64,000 bases of DNA from a virus (lineage: Duplodnaviria; Caudoviricetes): positions 8,412 through 72,411 of IMG/VR virus record IMGVR_UViG_3300037601_000024, one strand, 5' to 3'. Shown piece by piece: positions 52,675-63,873 of the stretch (the stretch's first letter is position 1; every line of letters begins with the position of its first letter). The translations under genes were made by a program, and so were the position numbers. The notes beneath the pieces were generated by a model. The model was not told where the DNA came from, did not search any database, and was given only the letters and a program-made list of their open reading frames with translations.

Positions 52675-53061
52675 TTATTCGGTCGTTTCGCCAGAAGCTT
52701 CGACCGCCTTTTGAGCCGCCTCTGCTTCTGCCTTGCAGTTTGTGTCCACTGCACGCTCTAGTGCTCTTACCTGTCCCTTAGCAAGAGCGAGTTCGCCTTC
52801 AACATCGGCGCCGAACACCGATCCCGCAGGAACGAGAAGAAGGAAGACGCCGACCGTATCGGCCGTTGCTGCGTTGTTTTGTTTCTTACGAAGCGTTTCT
52901 TCTTCCGCGCGCTTCAGGTCCAGCTCCGCCCGAGACTCTTCGCAGGTCAGATCATAATACTCTGACGCCGACACTGAGACTGGAGCGACACCAGACGCTC
53001 TTGTGGCGCAAGCAGACAATAATCCTGCTGCTACCAGTGAAATAAATAAGGCATTTTTCAT
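52675..53061 (-). CDS. Lipoprotein
   Basis: Signal peptide with lipobox LLSAC. Confidence 0.75.
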   Translation of the reverse strand: MKNALFISLVAAGLLSACATRASGVAPVSVSASEYYDLTCEESRAELDLKRAEEETLRKKQNNAATADTVGVFLLLVPAGSVFGADVEGELALAKGQVRALERAVDTNCKAEAEAAQKAVEASGETTE

Positions 53062-53174
53062 TACGCACCCCGTTGGTTAATAGGAGCGCTTAGTAAATCG
53101 AATCCGAGTCCTTCCGCAACCGAAAAGTTAAGGCAATTCAAGATTGTATCTTTGTTTACACTCGACTTAAATCG

Positions 53175-53218
53175 AAGGCGGTGGGTACGATCTTGAGTTT
53201 CCACAACCCACCGCCTTC
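53175..53218 (-). terminator. Strong hairpin downstream of the tRNA-like element
   Basis: GAAGGCGGTGGGT / ACCCACCGCCTTC 13-bp stem. Confidence 0.65.
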
Positions 53219-53219
53219 T

Positions 53220-53294
53220 AAATCCCTATGCTCTGCCTGACTGAGCTACCCAGCGCGTAGCCGGGGTGAGATTCGAACTCACGACCTAGGGTTT
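53220..53294 (-). ncRNA. Circularly permuted tRNA-like RNA (T arm - closed acceptor stem - D arm; YrlA-like topology)
   Basis: AAA-CCCTA-GGTC-GTGAG-TTCGAAT-CTCAC-CCCGGC-TACGC-GCTGGG-TA-GCTC-AGTCAGGCA-GAGC-A-TAGGG-ATTT. Confidence 0.75.
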
Positions 53295-56174
53295 CCTCTT
53301 TGATGGAGATGCCGTTAGCACCTCCCACCAACTGTCTGCATCTTCGAAATCGTCGCGCTCCACCGCCTCGATGTAAAACGTCGCCAAGTCTACCCGCGCT
53401 TTATGTACCTCACGCGGGTCTTCTGGGTAAGACTGCATCGCCATGATTTGTTCTTTGGTGTAGCCGCCGTCAGTCATCGCGCTCCCCTGTCGGGTAGAGG
53501 CATCCAGTGGGTGCGGCTTTCAGGGCGGCTTGCATGGATCGGATCATCCGGTCTTTGTGGTCATTCGGCAGCTCATCCCACGAGCGCTCAAGGTCTTCCA
53601 CGCCGGACATGTATTCCTGATAGTGAGCTTTCGCCATTGCTTCCATCAAAACCTCACGCAATGCCGCATCGTTATCCTGTGCGGAGTAGTTGACAACATC
53701 AAAAGCTGACCCCTCCAACCAATCGCGCACCATAGAAACAACGCTCTCAACGGTCTCTTCAGTCGACAGATCGTTTTCGGTACACCGTTGCGCCCGCTTG
53801 ATGATCAAGTCCGGCAGCTTTCTTGCGGCTCGATCATTGCTCTTCGACAACCTTGTTAAAACCGCCTGGCGATCCTCGTCAGATAGCTTCATCGGATCAT
53901 TTCGCATTACCCCACTCCATACACAACTGCTTCAGCGATGCGCTCCCAGTGTCTTTTGATATTCTCAGTATGCTTATCCCAGAGCGCACGAGCTGATTCT
54001 TCAGATAAAGCTGGCTGCGCCGCCCTGAACGCTCGAAACCCTGCACCGAATGTCCCCAGAATTTTCAGAGACTGAAGCTCATAATTGTAATCCGACAGCT
54101 CGTCATACGCTTCCAATAGGCGTTGAAGTTCGTCGACCTGAATTTTGACGCTTTGCTCGCCGGCCTTCTTCAGGTCTTCAACAAGCTGGCGTGTGGAGTG
54201 AACGATATCGGTCATACCGGAAGTCCTCTCCAGCCGTCTTCCCACCAATAGCCGACATAATCGCGCTGATATTTGATGTGGTCGAACCACTCATTGATCT
54301 CGCCGATCGTATCCTCCTCGATTGTGAATGGGATTACCCATTGGACGTAGAGAATGTGCTGCTTCATGCGCTTGTCTCCCGCTTCAAAAGCATCAATCGG
54401 TTCCTGAGAGCGTGGATCGCTTGCAATCTGGTCGCGTGACTATTGATCTGGTCATCGAGAACACCACTCAGAGCGACGTTTAGCTCGTCTTGCTCCTGCT
54501 GATACCTGTCGACCTGTTCTTCGCGCTCACGGAGCTCCTGTGTCGTTTTCTCAGCGCGTTGTTTCCACGTGCGCTTGTCTTCCATCGCCCCGTTGTAAGC
54601 ATCTGCATCCGGAACTGCGACAGTATCGGACCTGACCCACGATTGAATGCGCGGACCATCTAGGTGAGCTTTCGTTTGAAAGCGCGCGATGTGATACGAC
54701 CGGCGCCATATCCGGTATCCGTCGATCATCTTGGTTGGGATCCAGGCGAACTTCTTCCGCCACGGTCCAACACGTTCCATGAACATCATCATTCCTGAAG
54801 TCCCTCGTTCTCGATTTCGGTAATGAACTCTTCGACGCGTAGGTGAAGTTCGACCCACTTCTTTCCGAAGCCGTCTTTGGTCTCGCAAGTGGGATCAACC
54901 ATACGCCGGTGTCCTTCGAGATCAGTCAGTGCTCTCAGGTTTCCTTTCGCCTGGTTCCAGACGATCGCCTTGTTCATGGATAGCGTTTCGTAGCTCAAAA
55001 GCTGCTCCCTAGCGCTTGGACGAATTTGTAGAGAAAGAACGGAATGCCGATCACAACGATGGCCAGACCGATCAGAAGGTTCCAGCATACTCTAGGCATC
55101 GGCGTGCTTCCCGAGCAGGTAGACCGTGTTTCGGGTGTGAGCGAGCTTCATGTCACCCACGTCCTCGATCTTTGTGACCGTACTGGTGAAGACCGGCTCT
55201 GAGTCTTTGAAACGACCCTTCCGGTCAAAAAAGATCCAGCCTTGCAGACGATCGCCGATTTGCTCCCAGTTGTGGAGCATGGCGTGTGCGATCATGATAT
55301 CGTTCGGGACGTTGTTCATTCCGCCACCTTCTCGAACCACTCCTGGCGCGACGCCAAAGACAGCTCTCCCCAAGATGGGAAACGGTTGCAGTGAATACCG
55401 GAGCTATCGACATGTTTGATGTACGCCGCTTTGGCTTTCTGCTCGCGCTCGGAGACCTCTCGAAGCGGTGTCAGCTCCCGCTGTGCTTCGTCACGAACCA
55501 TCGCCGCCCATCCGCGAGCCTCATCAGGATCGCATGGACGCTCACTGGTCCGGCTGTTTGGACATTCGCCGTCGTGGTCTGCGCAATCCCGGCACATCGG
55601 TGATGGGATGAAGACCTCCAGCGCGTCTAAGAGTTTTTCGATAGTCGCCTTGGTCATCACAAAAGCTCACTCAGTGCCGGCGCCGAAAACGCACGCGGAG
55701 CGGCCTGTCTCGCGATCATCATTGCGAAGTTGGCGACGTCAGCCGCCTCCCTGGCGATCCCTCTTTCGATCTCTTCGTCGATACGAGGATCGCCGTCTCT
55801 GTCGCTGTGAACCACTTCGGCCAGCTCCATGACCTCTTCACCAAGCCGACGCAGGAGCGCCGCCGGTGAATCATCGAGCGTTCCGTTCTTATGGTCATTC
55901 TCTCGCAGCTTCGCTTCCATCCAGAGCGCGAACTGACTGATTGCGGGACGGAAAGGTGGTTTCGACATCACAGCGCCTCGTAGAGCGACTTCTGTTCGCC
56001 GACAGATTTCTCGAACGCGCGGCCGAAACGATCTTCGCAGTCTTCGTCATCGACGCTGATACCCATCAGCGTACAGACACGCATCAAATCCTCGTCAACA
56101 TCTCCGGTGTGCTCCCAATGCTGAGAACCTGCGATCAAACGCATGAGAATTTCTTTGTAGTCGATGGTCGGCAT
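53286..56174 (-). CDS. Minus-strand operon of small hypothetical ORFs (53286-53477, 53470-~53895, 53907-54215, 54212-54367, 54364-~54790, 54789-~54977, 55092-55319, 55316-55660, 55657-55971, 55968-56174)
   Basis: Chain of ATGA/TGATG overlaps; 55657-55971 has a KLRENDHK...EAADVANFAMMI MazG-like pattern. Confidence 0.6.
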
Positions 56175-59033: not shown

Positions 59034-60246
59034 TTACTCCACGCAGGCGTCGCCACAACCGACGTAACTCTCCGCAAACTCAATGGCCTTCACACATGCA
59101 GCGAATGTGTCGGAATCTTGATATTTTCCACATGCCTTGATGCACCCCATTTCCGTAGGGTCTTCACCGGCCATGCAGCGCAATCCTTCCAAAAACGCCT
59201 GTCTATGCGCCTCTTCTGTGATGGCGCCAGGTTCGGTTGGCGTTCGATCGCTGACTGTGACGACCGGCGGGGATGGTTCGGTTGGCTCGATGGTGCAAGT
59301 TGCGACACCTGCCAGGCAGAAGCAGCCGATAGCGAATGCTATGATGGAGGGTTTCATGTAAGAGGTCCAATTAATAGTTAGGGTTGACTTACATTATAGC
59401 GCAAATAGGCTACGTCAGGTATTCCTCGTCTTCGAATTCGTCCTCACCATCTTCCTGGCGCTGCGAATAGAGCTCTACGAGACCTTCAAATGCCTCATTG
59501 AAGCCGTCGACCAATCCCTCATACGATCCAGACGCCTTCATCTTCTTCTGGGTGGTCTCGATCTGCTCATTCGACCACGAAAGTTGCCGACCATAACTGC
59601 GGACCATTCCAAGAATGGCGAATGCGTTTCCCGCTGTGCCATCAATATCAATTCGAACCATTACGACCTCCGTTTCGTTATCCTTGGTCTAGTGATGCAG
59701 ATCGATTTGTCTTTCGGCTTCGGTCGCAGTTTCTTCGGCTTCGGAATTCCAAGTTTATCGAGAACGCACGGCAGGTCTTTGATCCAGAACTCGGCCGACG
59801 CGGTCGCATCGTTTCCGCAGATCACCGCATTGGCGAATGAACGCAGGTTCTCGTCGTTGCACATGGCGGCATAGCCGTAGACCAAGTGCAAAGCGTCGAT
59901 TGCGTTCTCGAAGGCGTTCTCAGCTCTCATTTTCGCGCTCTTTGCGCCGCTGAAGCGCGCGGTCAGCCAATCCATGGTAACAATCATCCGTCTTATGGAT
60001 GAAGTTCATGTAGCCGCTTTCGCGCAACGCGAATTGCAGGCCGGCGCCAATCCCCTCGAAAATAGCGTCAACGAGCGCGGCCAAGTTTTGCAAGATTAAG
60101 GCGATAACACCGATGACGAATAGCGGAATCATGACCGGCGCCAGGCTACCCCAATAGAATACCCGTCGAACGTTGATCTTGAGGTAAGGCCAAATGAGCG
60201 CGCGATCGTGGCGAAGGATGTACTTCCAGTTCTTAAACCAGATCAT
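59034..60246 (-). CDS. Four small hypothetical ORFs (59034-59357, 59410-59661, 59661-59930, 59920-60246)
   Basis: RBS and overlaps; 59410-59661 has a DGTAGNAFAILG phage-type motif; two have TM/signal segments. Confidence 0.55.
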
Positions 60247-60922
60247 GACGCTCTTCCAAACTTTGAGAAAGGAATTGCGGGATCTCGAGCGTGACGTCGG
60301 TTGACCCTTTGACCAAGCCGATATTGCCGGTGTTTGTTCCGCCGATCGTGCGCCACGCTGCCTGAACCAGCTTAGCCTGGTACACACAATCCCATACTGC
60401 GTCATGCGCACCGCCTGGGATCAGCGCGGAGATGCCTTGATTGATCTCCTGCTTCTGCTCGTCGGTGACAAAGTCCTGCATGGTGCGGACGTCACGATAA
60501 TTACGGAAACACCCCATGAACGGAGAGTTGTCGGCGAACTCGATTGAAAGGTGGTCAATCATCGCCAGATCGAAGGCTGGACCTTTGGACCAGATGCCGG
60601 CGAACCCTGTCCACCCGCTCCGACCATGCATCGACGGCCAGTTTCGCATCTCATAAAGAGCGACGCCAGGGTGAATAGCGTTCTTCAGACCTTCCTGTAG
60701 ACGCTCGCGCGCTTCATCGCTCTGAGACAACCACCACTGAAGCGTACCGTGCTCTACGACGCGATAAGCGTCCTGCTGCGCATTAATGTCGAGGTACGTA
60801 TCAAAGCGCTCGCGGATATAGACGCGCTCACGATCAAACGGAATGGCGCTAATCTGCGTGATGACAGATTCGAGACCCGTTCCCAGAGTCTCGATATCGA
60901 TCATGACATGAATGTCAGTCAT
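60233..60922 (-). CDS. 3'-5' exonuclease (DEDDh, exonuclease VIII / Rv2179c-like)
   Basis: VMIDIETLG, T..WW..Q, WSKGPAFD, RDVRT, HDAVWD. Confidence 0.85.
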   Translation of the reverse strand: MTDIHVMIDIETLGTGLESVITQISAIPFDRERVYIRERFDTYLDINAQQDAYRVVEHGTLQWWLSQSDEARERLQEGLKNAIHPGVALYEMRNWPSMHGRSGWTGFAGIWSKGPAFDLAMIDHLSIEFADNSPFMGCFRNYRDVRTMQDFVTDEQKQEINQGISALIPGGAHDAVWDCVYQAKLVQAAWRTIGGTNTGNIGLVKGSTDVTLEIPQFLSQSLEERHDLV

Positions 60923-62506: not shown

Positions 62507-63679
62507 TCAACTGGCTTCGGTAGGCATTGTAACAATCGATTGAATATAATCGGACCAGGCTTGAAGCGCTTCCCGCCTTTCTTCGAGATAGTCGTAGTGA
62601 TTATAGTGACTGAGAGCGCCGAGCGATCGGACAGAGTGATTGATACACCGCCGGATTAAATCGTCGCCGATACCTTTCTTCACTTGTGGCAATTGAGTTG
62701 CGAACGTCCGCCGGAGATCATGTGCCGTAAACCGGCCGTTGAACCGCTCGTCATCGTCAAACTTCTTTAGCGCCTGCGTTACCGCCGAACTCTTGCAGAG
62801 GAAGACATCTCCGATCTTACGAGTGCCAACCTGCTCGCGCAGAAGCTTAATGGCGAACAAGCTGAGCGGAACTTTGTGCTCCCTACCATTCTTGGTTCTC
62901 TCTTTGGGAATAATCCAAACCCTATTTTCAAAGTCGATATCCTTGACCTTCATAGACGCCGTCTCGCCTGATCGCTGAGCGGTCAGAAGGATGAACCGTG
63001 TCAGAGCAGCACTGTCGCGTGTGTAACGCCGTTCCCGGTCGCAGGCGTGCCAGAGAGCTTTAATCTCATCTTCCGATAACACCCTGGTTCTTCGCCTCTT
63101 GCCGGCAACATGTGGCACTGAACGCATAGGGTCGTATTCGACATACTCTCTTTGCGCACCCCAATTAAAGATGACAGCCAGGACGACACGGCAGGTTCTC
63201 GCAACACCCTCACCTCCCTCCTTCGTCAACAAGCTCTCCAAGAACTGAAAGAGCGCACCTCTCCGGATCGACTTTAATCTGCGATCGCCGAAAACCGGCA
63301 GAATGTGTACGTCCAGCATGATGCGATAAACACGCTGGCTGGCTGGCTTTAAGTTCCTGAACTTCGGAGATTCCAGATACATTTTGGCTAAATCTCGAAA
63401 CGTCCATGTTCCAAATACATCCTCGTCGCCGATACCAATACCGGCGTCCAATTCCTCTTGAAGCTTGAGAGATCGCCGGCGTGCCTCTCTCAGTGAGATC
63501 GTGTCGGCGTCACCAACTTTCTTTTCTTTTTGTTGGCCGTATCCGGTGAAGCGATAAAAATATGTTTTACTTCCTGATTTATACACCCTTAGACAGAGTC
63601 CTGATCCGGTCACGTCGCTTAGGCGATAGTCTCTATTTTTGACCGGCGCGCGATCGACTTTTGTCTGCGTTAAACCCAC
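62507..63679 (-). CDS. int: Tyrosine integrase with N-terminal arm-binding domain
   Basis: DYRLSD..GSGLCLRV..SGSKTY; catalytic R (TAQRSGE), K (TKNG), HDLRR, NH, HY; GTG start after AGGA. Confidence 0.95.
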   Translation of the reverse strand: MGLTQTKVDRAPVKNRDYRLSDVTGSGLCLRVYKSGSKTYFYRFTGYGQQKEKKVGDADTISLREARRRSLKLQEELDAGIGIGDEDVFGTWTFRDLAKMYLESPKFRNLKPASQRVYRIMLDVHILPVFGDRRLKSIRRGALFQFLESLLTKEGGEGVARTCRVVLAVIFNWGAQREYVEYDPMRSVPHVAGKRRRTRVLSEDEIKALWHACDRERRYTRDSAALTRFILLTAQRSGETASMKVKDIDFENRVWIIPKERTKNGREHKVPLSLFAIKLLREQVGTRKIGDVFLCKSSAVTQALKKFDDDERFNGRFTAHDLRRTFATQLPQVKKGIGDDLIRRCINHSVRSLGALSHYNHYDYLEERREALQAWSDYIQSIVTMPTEAS

Positions 63680-63705
63680 AGTTGTATCCTCAATAATTTG
63701 AATCC

Positions 63706-63725
63706 TGCGTCCAGTTTGCGTCCAG
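63706..63725. repeat. Tandem 9-bp direct repeats, candidate integrase arm-type sites
   Basis: TGCGTCCAG at 63706 and 63717 (11-bp period). Confidence 0.55.
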
Positions 63726-63873
63726 ATTGAGCAGGTTTTCGACATTAGTAACGGATTGTTGTTATTTACAATTTTTTATCGCGGTCAAGCGCGTTCTGTT
63801 GCCGTTATTGGGGTTAAGGGTCTAATTAATTGTAATCTTTGACTTATTTTCTGTTTTTCGATTTTTGGTAGAA

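What the first reader, a model, noticed from the sequence alone, without database searches (positions are those of the whole stretch)
53220..53294. Circularly permuted tRNA mimic with no Ro/Rsr partner in the window
Seen in sequence (minus strand): the 3' half (CCCTA-GGTC-GTGAG-TTCGAAT-CTCAC-CCCGGC) comes before the 5' half (GCTGGG-TA-GCTC-AGTCAGGCA-GAGC-A-TAGGG). The acceptor stem is closed by a 5-nt loop (TACGC), the anticodon stem TAGGG/CCCTA becomes the terminal helix, and there is no CCA and no intact anticodon loop. All elbow contacts are preserved (U8-A14, G15-C48, G18-U55, G19-C56, U54-A58), which suggests selection on the fold. It overlaps the stop codon of ORF 53286-53477 and is followed by a 13-bp hairpin. 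Established: bacterial YrlA Y RNAs have this T-AS-D topology and usually lie near a Ro60/Rsr gene; permuted tRNA genes are known from algae and an archaeon. No TROVE protein is encoded here, and I see no extended Rsr-binding stem. Inference: a minimal tRNA-elbow decoy (for example against tRNA-targeting defence nucleases or tRNA sensors), a 3'-processing signal, or a permuted tRNA matured by ligation.
Basis: partly seen in the sequence, partly recalled or inferred. Interest (0 to 1): 0.85.

Follow-up and report, generated by a model that had tools for sequence, protein, structure and literature searches.

The report
Orphan tRNA-mimic RNA in a prophage
A prophage carries an intact "inside-out" tRNA body of the kind that forms the business end of bacterial Y RNAs. 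It lacks both the docking stem and the Ro60-type partner protein that almost always accompany such RNAs, so it is a stripped-down variant of a known RNA type, and its function is untested.

Summary
On the minus strand, 53291-53224 folds as T arm, hairpin-closed acceptor stem (6 bp, loop UACGC) and D arm, all closed by a 5-bp anticodon-type stem. All 20 stem pairs and all elbow nucleotides are intact. Rfam YrlA aligns it end to end at 40.8 bits, below the gathering score of 69. ARAGORN calls the de-permuted halves a complete tRNA.

It is the tRNA-like (effector) module of a YrlA-type Y RNA, without the Ro-binding stalk. The 72.4-kb record (66% complete) has no TROVE, DUF2828, Band-7 or RtcB gene, and no homologue of a 712-747-aa protein I found beside TROVE-less phage modules. 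Five complete cultured relatives lack the three ring-partner families I searched (TROVE, DUF2828, the 712-747-aa family).

I surveyed 42 other viral records that carry such modules. 38 encode one of those three partner families, usually within 2 kb downstream. This element therefore belongs to a minority of at most about 10%.

No orthologue, transcript or host genome could be reached, so selection and function remain inferred. This scan has flagged permuted tRNA mimics often (436 notes). Verdict: a real new variant of a known kind, of moderate interest.

The parts
53224..53291 (-). Circularly permuted tRNA-like core (68 nt). AC-stem 3' strand 53291-53287; variable loop 53286-53283; T arm 53282-53266; acceptor hairpin 53265-53249 (6 bp, loop UACGC at 53259-53255); U8-A9 53248-53247; D arm 53246-53230; A26 53229; AC-stem 5' strand 53228-53224.
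   Evidence: Sequence; RNAfold MFE and centroid; Rfam YrlA 40.8 bits over model 1-114; de-permuted halves called a tRNA by ARAGORN.
53174..53218 (-). Perfect 13-bp hairpin with a 19-nt loop, 5 nt downstream of the core. It is the probable 3' boundary or protective structure of the RNA. It is not a canonical intrinsic terminator.
   Evidence: Inverted repeat I2, 100% complementary; -26.3 kcal/mol, z -5.0; not called by the terminator scan, weak U tract.
53286..53477 (-). 63-aa ORF, last gene of a minus-strand run of small ORFs. Its last codons and its stop (UAG) lie in the closing-stem strand of the RNA module. Its start overlaps the upstream ORF (ATGA).
   Evidence: ORF list. Codon-position GC of 0.58/0.41/0.62 resembles confirmed genes of the phage. 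No relatives found.
53305..53325 (-). 9-bp hairpin inside the end of the ORF, about 14 nt upstream of the core. It occupies the 5' flank that would otherwise be needed for a Y-RNA stalk. Its significance is weak.
   Evidence: RNAfold (50-nt stretch, z -2.05).

Best explanation
The element is a genuine, intact tRNA mimic of the YrlA type. It corresponds to the tRNA-elbow ('effector-binding') module of bacterial and phage Y RNAs, present here on its own without the 5'/3' stalk that binds Ro60/Rsr and without a Ro-type gene beside it. It lies at the 3' end of a minus-strand run of small phage ORFs. It is probably made as the tail of that transcript, bounded and protected by the 13-bp hairpin, and may be trimmed to a stable small RNA. 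Its sealed acceptor stem and missing anticodon loop mean it cannot be charged, decoded or cut by anticodon nucleases. Only the elbow (T loop, D loop and their stems) is displayed. The most likely mode of action is therefore binding, titrating or recruiting a host protein that reads the tRNA elbow, independently of a phage Ro protein. Shown here: the fold, its intactness, its kinship to YrlA modules, and the absence of the known partner genes. Inferred: transcription, stability, the binding partner and any benefit to the phage.
For: The fold and elbow nucleotides are intact: 20 of 20 stem pairs. There is an end-to-end YrlA alignment in permuted order. The halves form a complete tRNA body. No tRNA or tmRNA was called in the window or the record. 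The same closed-acceptor architecture recurs in viral contigs with different stem sequences: 40 of 123 pattern hits have 6 of 6 acceptor pairs against a chance of about 0.3%, 33 modules were found and 14 candidates (12 free of tRNA calls), and the alignment is. That supports a selected RNA type. The record has no TROVE, RtcB, DUF2828, Band-7 or A2-family gene, and five complete relatives have no TROVE, DUF2828 or A2 family. The flanks fold on themselves rather than into a stalk, and the outer YrlA helices are mismatched. Published structure work places the unknown YrlA effector at the elbow (10.1101/312249).
Against: It is a singleton. No orthologue was found in phages, plasmids, viral contigs, genomes or metagenomes. 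There is therefore no covariation for this locus and no proof of selection. No promoter or canonical terminator defines a discrete gene. The record is only 66% complete and the host genome could not be searched, so a distant Ro-type partner is not excluded. In 38 of 42 other viral records such modules do come with a ring-protein partner, so a partner-free mechanism would be the exception.
Confidence: 0.45

Rival explanations
1. It is a conventional Y RNA whose Ro-type protein is encoded elsewhere, either by the host or in the missing third of the prophage. Ro would then bind an unconventional handle, such as the 13-bp hairpin or the weak flank pairing UCCAUC/GGUGGG.
For: About 90% of phage modules surveyed co-occur with TROVE, DUF2828 or the 712-747-aa family. 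The record is 66% complete. The cmscan alignment can draw a short outer helix. Some TROVE-less phage modules keep long stalks, for example L234, whose complete genome has none of the three partner families.
Against: Where a partner exists it is adjacent: a TROVE-like ORF starts 0.1-2 kb downstream on the same strand in 20 loci. Here the neighbours are small orphans. Five complete relatives lack all three partner families. The stalk positions of YrlA are mismatched and both flanks are sequestered in their own hairpins. The one Caulobacterales control genome (Caulobacter vibrioides) has no TROVE.
Confidence: 0.2
2. It is a non-functional relic. It could be the remnant of a Y RNA that lost its stalk and partner by recombination in this accessory region, or a scar of two adjacent copies of one tRNA gene truncated on both sides.
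For: It is a singleton in an orphan-gene region with no conserved neighbours. An ORF reads into it, as at an insertion junction. Relatives such as B1VFA carry small tRNA clusters, and adjacent tRNAs score on the YrlA model. The 7 nt after the 5' half (AUUUAGA) look like an anticodon loop.
Against: All 20 stem pairs and all tertiary-contact nucleotides are intact. Both truncations would have to fall exactly at the ends of the anticodon stem. Only 5 nt separate the acceptor strands, which leaves no room for a discriminator, a CCA and a spacer. As a tRNA the acceptor would have a C1-U72 mismatch. The same terminal-stem architecture recurs in unrelated phages.
Confidence: 0.2
3. It is a cis-acting 3'-end element of the upstream operon. 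The compact tRNA-like fold plus hairpin would stabilise the mRNA against 3' exonucleases or mark a processing site for a tRNA-processing nuclease.
For: It overlaps the stop codon of the last ORF and precedes a very stable hairpin. M. smegmatis YrlA is cut by RNase P (PMC4201824).
Against: The hairpin alone would protect the 3' end. The acceptor has 6 bp, and YrlAs with fewer than 7 bp were not RNase P substrates (PMC4201824; 10.1101/312249). Full conservation of the elbow is not needed for a mere stability element.
Confidence: 0.12
4. It is a permuted tRNA gene. The transcript would be circularised or ligated and opened at the acceptor loop to give a working tRNA, for example an ochre suppressor with anticodon UUA taken from the 3' flank.
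For: The de-permuted sequence with the natural 3' flank as its loop is called tRNA(uua) by ARAGORN.
Against: There is no RtcB or other ligase in the record. The 5' flank supplies no matching splice motif. The acceptor is 6 bp with C1-U72 and no discriminator or CCA. No bacterial or phage precedent for such a gene is known to me (my own knowledge).
Confidence: 0.03

Closest known systems
YrlA (Y RNA-like A; Rfam RF02553), the tRNA-like Y RNA bound by Rsr/Ro60 in Salmonella, Mycobacterium and TROVE-encoding phages (PMC4201824; 10.1101/312249)
   Same: Identical T arm, closed acceptor stem and D arm order, closed by an anticodon-type stem. The elbow nucleotides and the D stem GCUC/GAGC are conserved. 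There is no CCA and no anticodon loop. The acceptor has fewer than 7 bp.
   Different: It lacks the long 5'/3' stem that carries the Ro60 site. No rsr gene is adjacent or anywhere in the record. The T-stem sequence is GUGAG/CUCAC rather than the YrlA consensus. The score is 40.8 bits against a gathering score of 69. It sits in the 3' end of an mRNA.
Phage Y-like RNAs encoded beside Ro60-type ring proteins (TROVE or DUF2828), for example Thermus phage phiLo Yrl1/2 (PMC12135203) and the handle-bearing RNAs noted earlier in this scan
   Same: It is phage-encoded, and some of those RNAs carry the same permuted tRNA body.
   Different: Those RNAs sit within about 2 kb of the protein gene and carry a stalk or an ACAGCAA-type handle. 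Here neither the handle nor the protein is present.
b7a-tRNA, the predicted tRNA-like RNA next to Band-7 and RtcB genes (Burroughs and Aravind 2016, as cited in 10.1101/312249)
   Same: It is a tRNA-like RNA proposed to act without Ro60.
   Different: b7a-tRNA resembles an authentic, unpermuted tRNA and is defined by Band-7/RtcB neighbours. Neither gene is in this record.
Circularly permuted tRNA genes of Cyanidioschyzon merolae and related cases; two-piece (permuted) tmRNA genes of Alphaproteobacteria
   Same: In the gene, the 3' half precedes the 5' half.
   Different: Those genes keep an anticodon loop or a tag reading frame and are matured to free acceptor ends. Here there is no anticodon loop. 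ARAGORN found no tmRNA and Rfam found no tmRNA family.

Membership tests
YrlA / bacterial Y RNA | tRNA-like effector module: T arm, closed acceptor stem and D arm with conserved elbow nucleotides | tested here: met
YrlA / bacterial Y RNA | Long stem formed by the 5' and 3' ends that contains the Ro60/Rsr binding site (stated for all characterised Y RNAs in 10.1101/312249) | tested here: not met
   The outer helices of the model align with non-standard pairs. Only 3 weak pairs extend the 5-bp closing stem. Each flank folds into its own hairpin.
YrlA / bacterial Y RNA | Encoded next to an rsr/Ro60 (TROVE) gene | tested here: not met
   There is no TROVE in the 72.4-kb record or in five complete relatives. 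The host genome could not be reached.
YrlA / bacterial Y RNA | Rfam gathering score (69 bits) | tested here: not met
   The score is 40.8 bits. The threshold is not informative for phages: YrlA was listed at that score in none of 15 TROVE-linked viral loci.
YrlA / bacterial Y RNA | Bound by Rsr; carries tRNA modifications (by TruB, DusA) | not testable with these tools
   This needs immunoprecipitation and modification mapping.
tRNA / permuted tRNA gene | Anticodon loop, 7-bp acceptor stem with free ends, discriminator and CCA or a processing route to them | tested here: not met
   There is no anticodon loop. The acceptor has 6 bp, is sealed by UACGC and has C1-U72. ARAGORN and Rfam tRNA models find nothing. 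There is no RtcB.
DUF2828/Ro60-like-associated phage Y-like RNAs | Conserved handle (ACAGCAA-type 5' strand) and a DUF2828 gene in the genome | tested here: not met
   The handle is absent from the flanks, in contrast to L023, L027 and L129. DUF2828 is absent. DUF2828 is present in positive controls.
b7a-tRNA / Band-7 RNA-repair module | Adjacent Band-7 and RtcB genes | tested here: not met
Two-piece (permuted) tmRNA | tmRNA-type tRNA-like domain plus tag reading frame; detected by ARAGORN or Rfam tmRNA models | tested here: not met
   A full D stem is present, unlike in tmRNA.

The most novel reading that the evidence does not exclude
It is a Ro-independent, handle-less tRNA-elbow mimic. The effector module of Y RNAs would have been set free as a stand-alone small RNA derived from a 3' UTR. 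A temperate phage would use it to occupy a host protein that reads the tRNA elbow, such as a tRNA-sensing defence or RNA-repair regulator or a tRNA-processing enzyme. That would make it the first natural case showing what this module does on its own.
Probability: 0.2. Interest if true: 0.7.

Novelty: new variant of a known kind. Interest (0 to 1): 0.4.

Why it matters
[quoted passage not shown] All studied cases are tied to Ro60 through a stalk. A natural module that keeps a perfect elbow but has neither stalk nor Ro-type gene would be a clean handle for finding the elbow-binding effector by pull-down. It would also allow a test of whether phages use tRNA mimicry independently of Ro60. If it proves to be a relic or to use a host Rsr, it is simply one more YrlA-like RNA.

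Tried and rejected
- **Orthologue searches, all empty.** blastn of the locus against phages and plasmids found nothing. Protein-anchored scans with the 145-aa, 524-aa and 63-aa neighbours found nothing useful. The 145-aa protein has no relative among 5.8 billion proteins. Pattern scans of genomes, metagenomes and viral contigs gave only unrelated modules or tandem tRNAs.
- **Relatives found through DNA polymerase III alpha.** These were fragments or cultured phages at about 41% identity, and none has the module. The one YrlA hit, in B1VFA, is two adjacent tRNA genes, and there is no synteny.
- **Rfam gathering score as a membership test.** I rejected it because YrlA was not listed at that score in any of the 15 TROVE-linked phage loci searched.
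- **Counting flank pairs around the closing stem.** I rejected this as a stalk detector because shuffled flanks give about 15 pairs on average. The raw numbers should not be over-read.
- **Neighbour annotation.** PHROGs, Pfam and the protein atlas gave nothing relevant to RNA. The CobT/CobS-like pair is unrelated to the 712-747-aa family.
- **Reaching the host.** The 'of' argument needs a genome handle.
- **Other dead ends.** No supplements were held for PMC4201824. The PDB sequence search with the 712-747-aa family was empty.

Full report
**What is there.** On the minus strand the 68 nt from 53291 to 53224 read, in order: a 5-nt strand (CCCUA), a 4-nt variable loop ending in C, a T arm (GUGAG-UUCGAAU-CUCAC), a 6-bp hairpin in the place of the acceptor stem (CCCGGC-UACGC-GCUGGG), UA, a D arm (GCUC-AGUCAGGCA-GAGC), A, and the complementary strand UAGGG.

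RNAfold gives exactly this permuted cloverleaf as minimum-energy and centroid structure for the 75-nt and 151-nt stretches. In the 301-nt stretch the three arms persist and the centroid keeps 4 of the 5 closing pairs. All 20 stem pairs are standard, with one G-U. The nucleotides that build the tRNA elbow and core (U8, A14, G15, G18, G19, A21, C48, U54, U55, C56, A58) are all in place.

The Rfam YrlA model aligns the element over its whole length at 40.8 bits, E about 1e-8. That is below the curated 69 bits. No tRNA, tmRNA or other Rfam family is called in the window or in the whole 72.4-kb record. When the two halves are put back into tRNA order in silico, ARAGORN calls a complete 76-nt tRNA. 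The core coordinates are 53224-53291.

**A caution on the score.** A sub-threshold YrlA hit is not enough on its own. The same model rings in most control genomes. It gave 32 bits to the junction of two ordinary tRNA genes in Rhizobium phage B1VFA. What separates the present element from such junctions is threefold:
- the acceptor strands pair with each other across a 5-nt loop;
- the outer strands pair to close the domain;
- neither half continues into a full tRNA.

**Setting.** The window is the right-hand 64 kb of an IMG/VR virus record of 72,411 bases, judged 66% complete. It ends with a tyrosine integrase at 62507-63745. It carries a replication module that includes a DNA polymerase III alpha-UDG fusion, a CobT/CobS-like pair and ribonucleotide reductase. 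The closest cultured relatives, at about 41% polymerase identity, are the 108-122-kb Rhizobium phage RHEph10 group, Stenotrophomonas phage ANB28 and Pseudomonas phage nickie.

The element lies at the end of a minus-strand run of small ORFs. The last is a 63-aa ORF (53286-53477) with gene-like codon-position GC. Its stop codon sits inside the CCCUA strand. Five nucleotides after the core comes a perfect 13-bp hairpin with a 19-nt loop (53218-53174). That hairpin is very stable, but its large loop and poor U tract keep it from being called a terminator. The neighbouring proteins have no informative family or relatives.

**Comparison with Y RNAs.** Published work defines Y RNAs as modular. A long stem formed by the 5' and 3' ends carries the Ro60/Rsr site. 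A second module binds an effector. In YrlA that second module is a tRNA-like domain with the same T, closed acceptor and D order (PMC4201824; 10.1101/312249). The present element matches the second module and fails the first:
- The outer helices of the YrlA model align with non-standard pairs.
- Each flank forms its own hairpin.
- The record has no TROVE gene and no RtcB.
- It has no Band-7, the alternative neighbour described for b7a-tRNA.
- It has no DUF2828.

**How unusual is the lack of a partner?** I sampled viral contigs with two sequence patterns that demand a T loop followed at acceptor-hairpin distance by a D arm. I kept only hits with a closed acceptor hairpin, a paired T stem and a closing stem, and removed those overlapped by tRNA calls. 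That left modules in 42 searchable records besides this one.

| Partner family in the record | First sample | Second sample | Total |
|---|---|---|---|
| TROVE (second sample: one below Pfam's cut-off) | 22 | 5 | 27 |
| Pfam-less 712-747-aa protein (alignment A2) | 4 | 1 | 5 |
| DUF2828 (one weak match in each sample) | 3 | 3 | 6 |
| None of these | 2 | 2 | 4 |

In 20 loci a TROVE-like ORF of about 430-555 aa (two cut shorter) starts 0.1-2 kb downstream on the same strand. The 712-747-aa protein was found adjacent to four TROVE-less modules of the first sample and occurs in the record of L166 in the second. Of the four records with no partner, two are small fragments and two are complete genomes: L107 (39.8 kb) and L234 (107 kb).

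So about 90% of phage modules travel with a candidate ring-protein partner, usually right beside them. The present element belongs to the small remainder. Five complete cultured relatives of this phage lack all three partner families. That makes it less likely that the missing third of the prophage hides one. The host genome could not be searched, so a host Rsr remains possible. The one Caulobacterales control genome, Caulobacter vibrioides, has no TROVE.

**Selection.** No orthologue of this locus was found anywhere. Two indirect arguments remain:
- The architecture as such recurs in unrelated phages with different stem sequences but kept pairing. 40 of 123 pattern hits have all six acceptor pairs, against about 0.3% by chance (alignment A1).
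- The element shows no decay at all in 20 pairs and 11 tertiary positions.
Both arguments fit function or very recent acquisition, and they cannot tell the two apart.

**Mechanism.** With a sealed acceptor end and no anticodon loop, the RNA cannot be aminoacylated, decoded or cleaved by anticodon nucleases. A 6-bp acceptor stem makes RNase P cleavage unlikely, by analogy with Salmonella YrlA (PMC4201824). What remains exposed is the elbow, which is where the unknown YrlA effector is thought to bind (10.1101/312249).

My best reading (0.45) is a stand-alone elbow mimic, made from the 3' end of the small-ORF operon and capped by the hairpin, that binds a host elbow-reading protein without Ro. 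The rivals are:
- a Y RNA served by a distant or host Ro-type protein (0.2);
- a relic or tRNA scar (0.2);
- a purely cis-acting 3'-end element (0.12);
- a permuted tRNA gene matured by ligation (0.03). The 3' flank AUUUAGA would give anticodon UUA, but there is no ligase, a defective acceptor and no precedent that I know of.

**Novelty and score.** Permuted tRNA mimics of the YrlA kind are published, and this scan has noted them 436 times in at least 390 genomes. This copy differs by lacking the stalk or handle and any partner gene. That makes it a new variant of a known kind, but one supported by a single sequence with no expression or conservation data. I score interest at 0.4.

Noticed in passing
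L025:1233-3380(-), L066:11508-13646(+), L115:992-3232(-); also in the records of L106 and L166: A 712-747-aa protein with no Pfam or PDB sequence match lies beside four TROVE-less permuted tRNA-like modules and also occurs in the record of L166. It has conserved motifs such as HSGDITSAP..GA.EFIDID. It is a candidate third partner family for phage tRNA-mimic RNAs.
   Followed up: partly
L023, L027, L052, L114, L129, L216 (flanks of the modules): A subset of phage modules inside tRNA arrays is clamped by a shared handle (5' CUAACAGCAA / UUUCAGCAA, 3' GUUAA-rich). Their records carry DUF2828 rather than TROVE. I did not test whether the two are linked.
   Followed up: partly
window 60233-60922 (-): A 229-aa protein matches the Rv2179c-like 3'-5' exoribonuclease family (PF16473, E 8e-29). 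It lies in the same minus-strand arm, 7 kb upstream of the RNA. Y RNAs are known to tether exoribonucleases, but no link is shown here.
   Followed up: no
window 53217-53223 (-): The 7 nt after the 5' half (AUUUAGA) have the form of an anticodon loop (U33, purine 37) with anticodon UUA. ARAGORN calls the de-permuted construct tRNA-Stop(tta). This may be a trace of the tRNA from which the module arose, or it may be chance (about 1 in 8).
   Followed up: partly
window 53127-53148 and 53186-53207: The 19-nt loop of the 13-bp hairpin is 77% complementary over 22 nt to the intergenic region upstream of the next gene, a lipoprotein-like ORF at 52675-53061. At this seed length it could be chance.
   Followed up: no
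L107:1700-1960: A complete 39.8-kb phage genome with none of the three partner families carries a module preceded by two 5-bp hairpins with 7-nt loops. One of them (GCGGA-CUCCAAA-UCCGC) looks like an anticodon arm. A 9-bp long-loop hairpin follows the module. It is the nearest analogue to the present orphan.
   Followed up: partly
L008 (two copies, minus strand): Two copies of a variant module lie 4 kb apart. Their acceptor hairpins have the same two internal mismatches and GAAA loops, but the top pairs covary.
   Followed up: no
15 TROVE-linked viral loci: YrlA is not listed at Rfam's gathering score in any of the 15 TROVE-linked viral loci searched, so routine annotation would miss phage Y RNAs.
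   Followed up: partly
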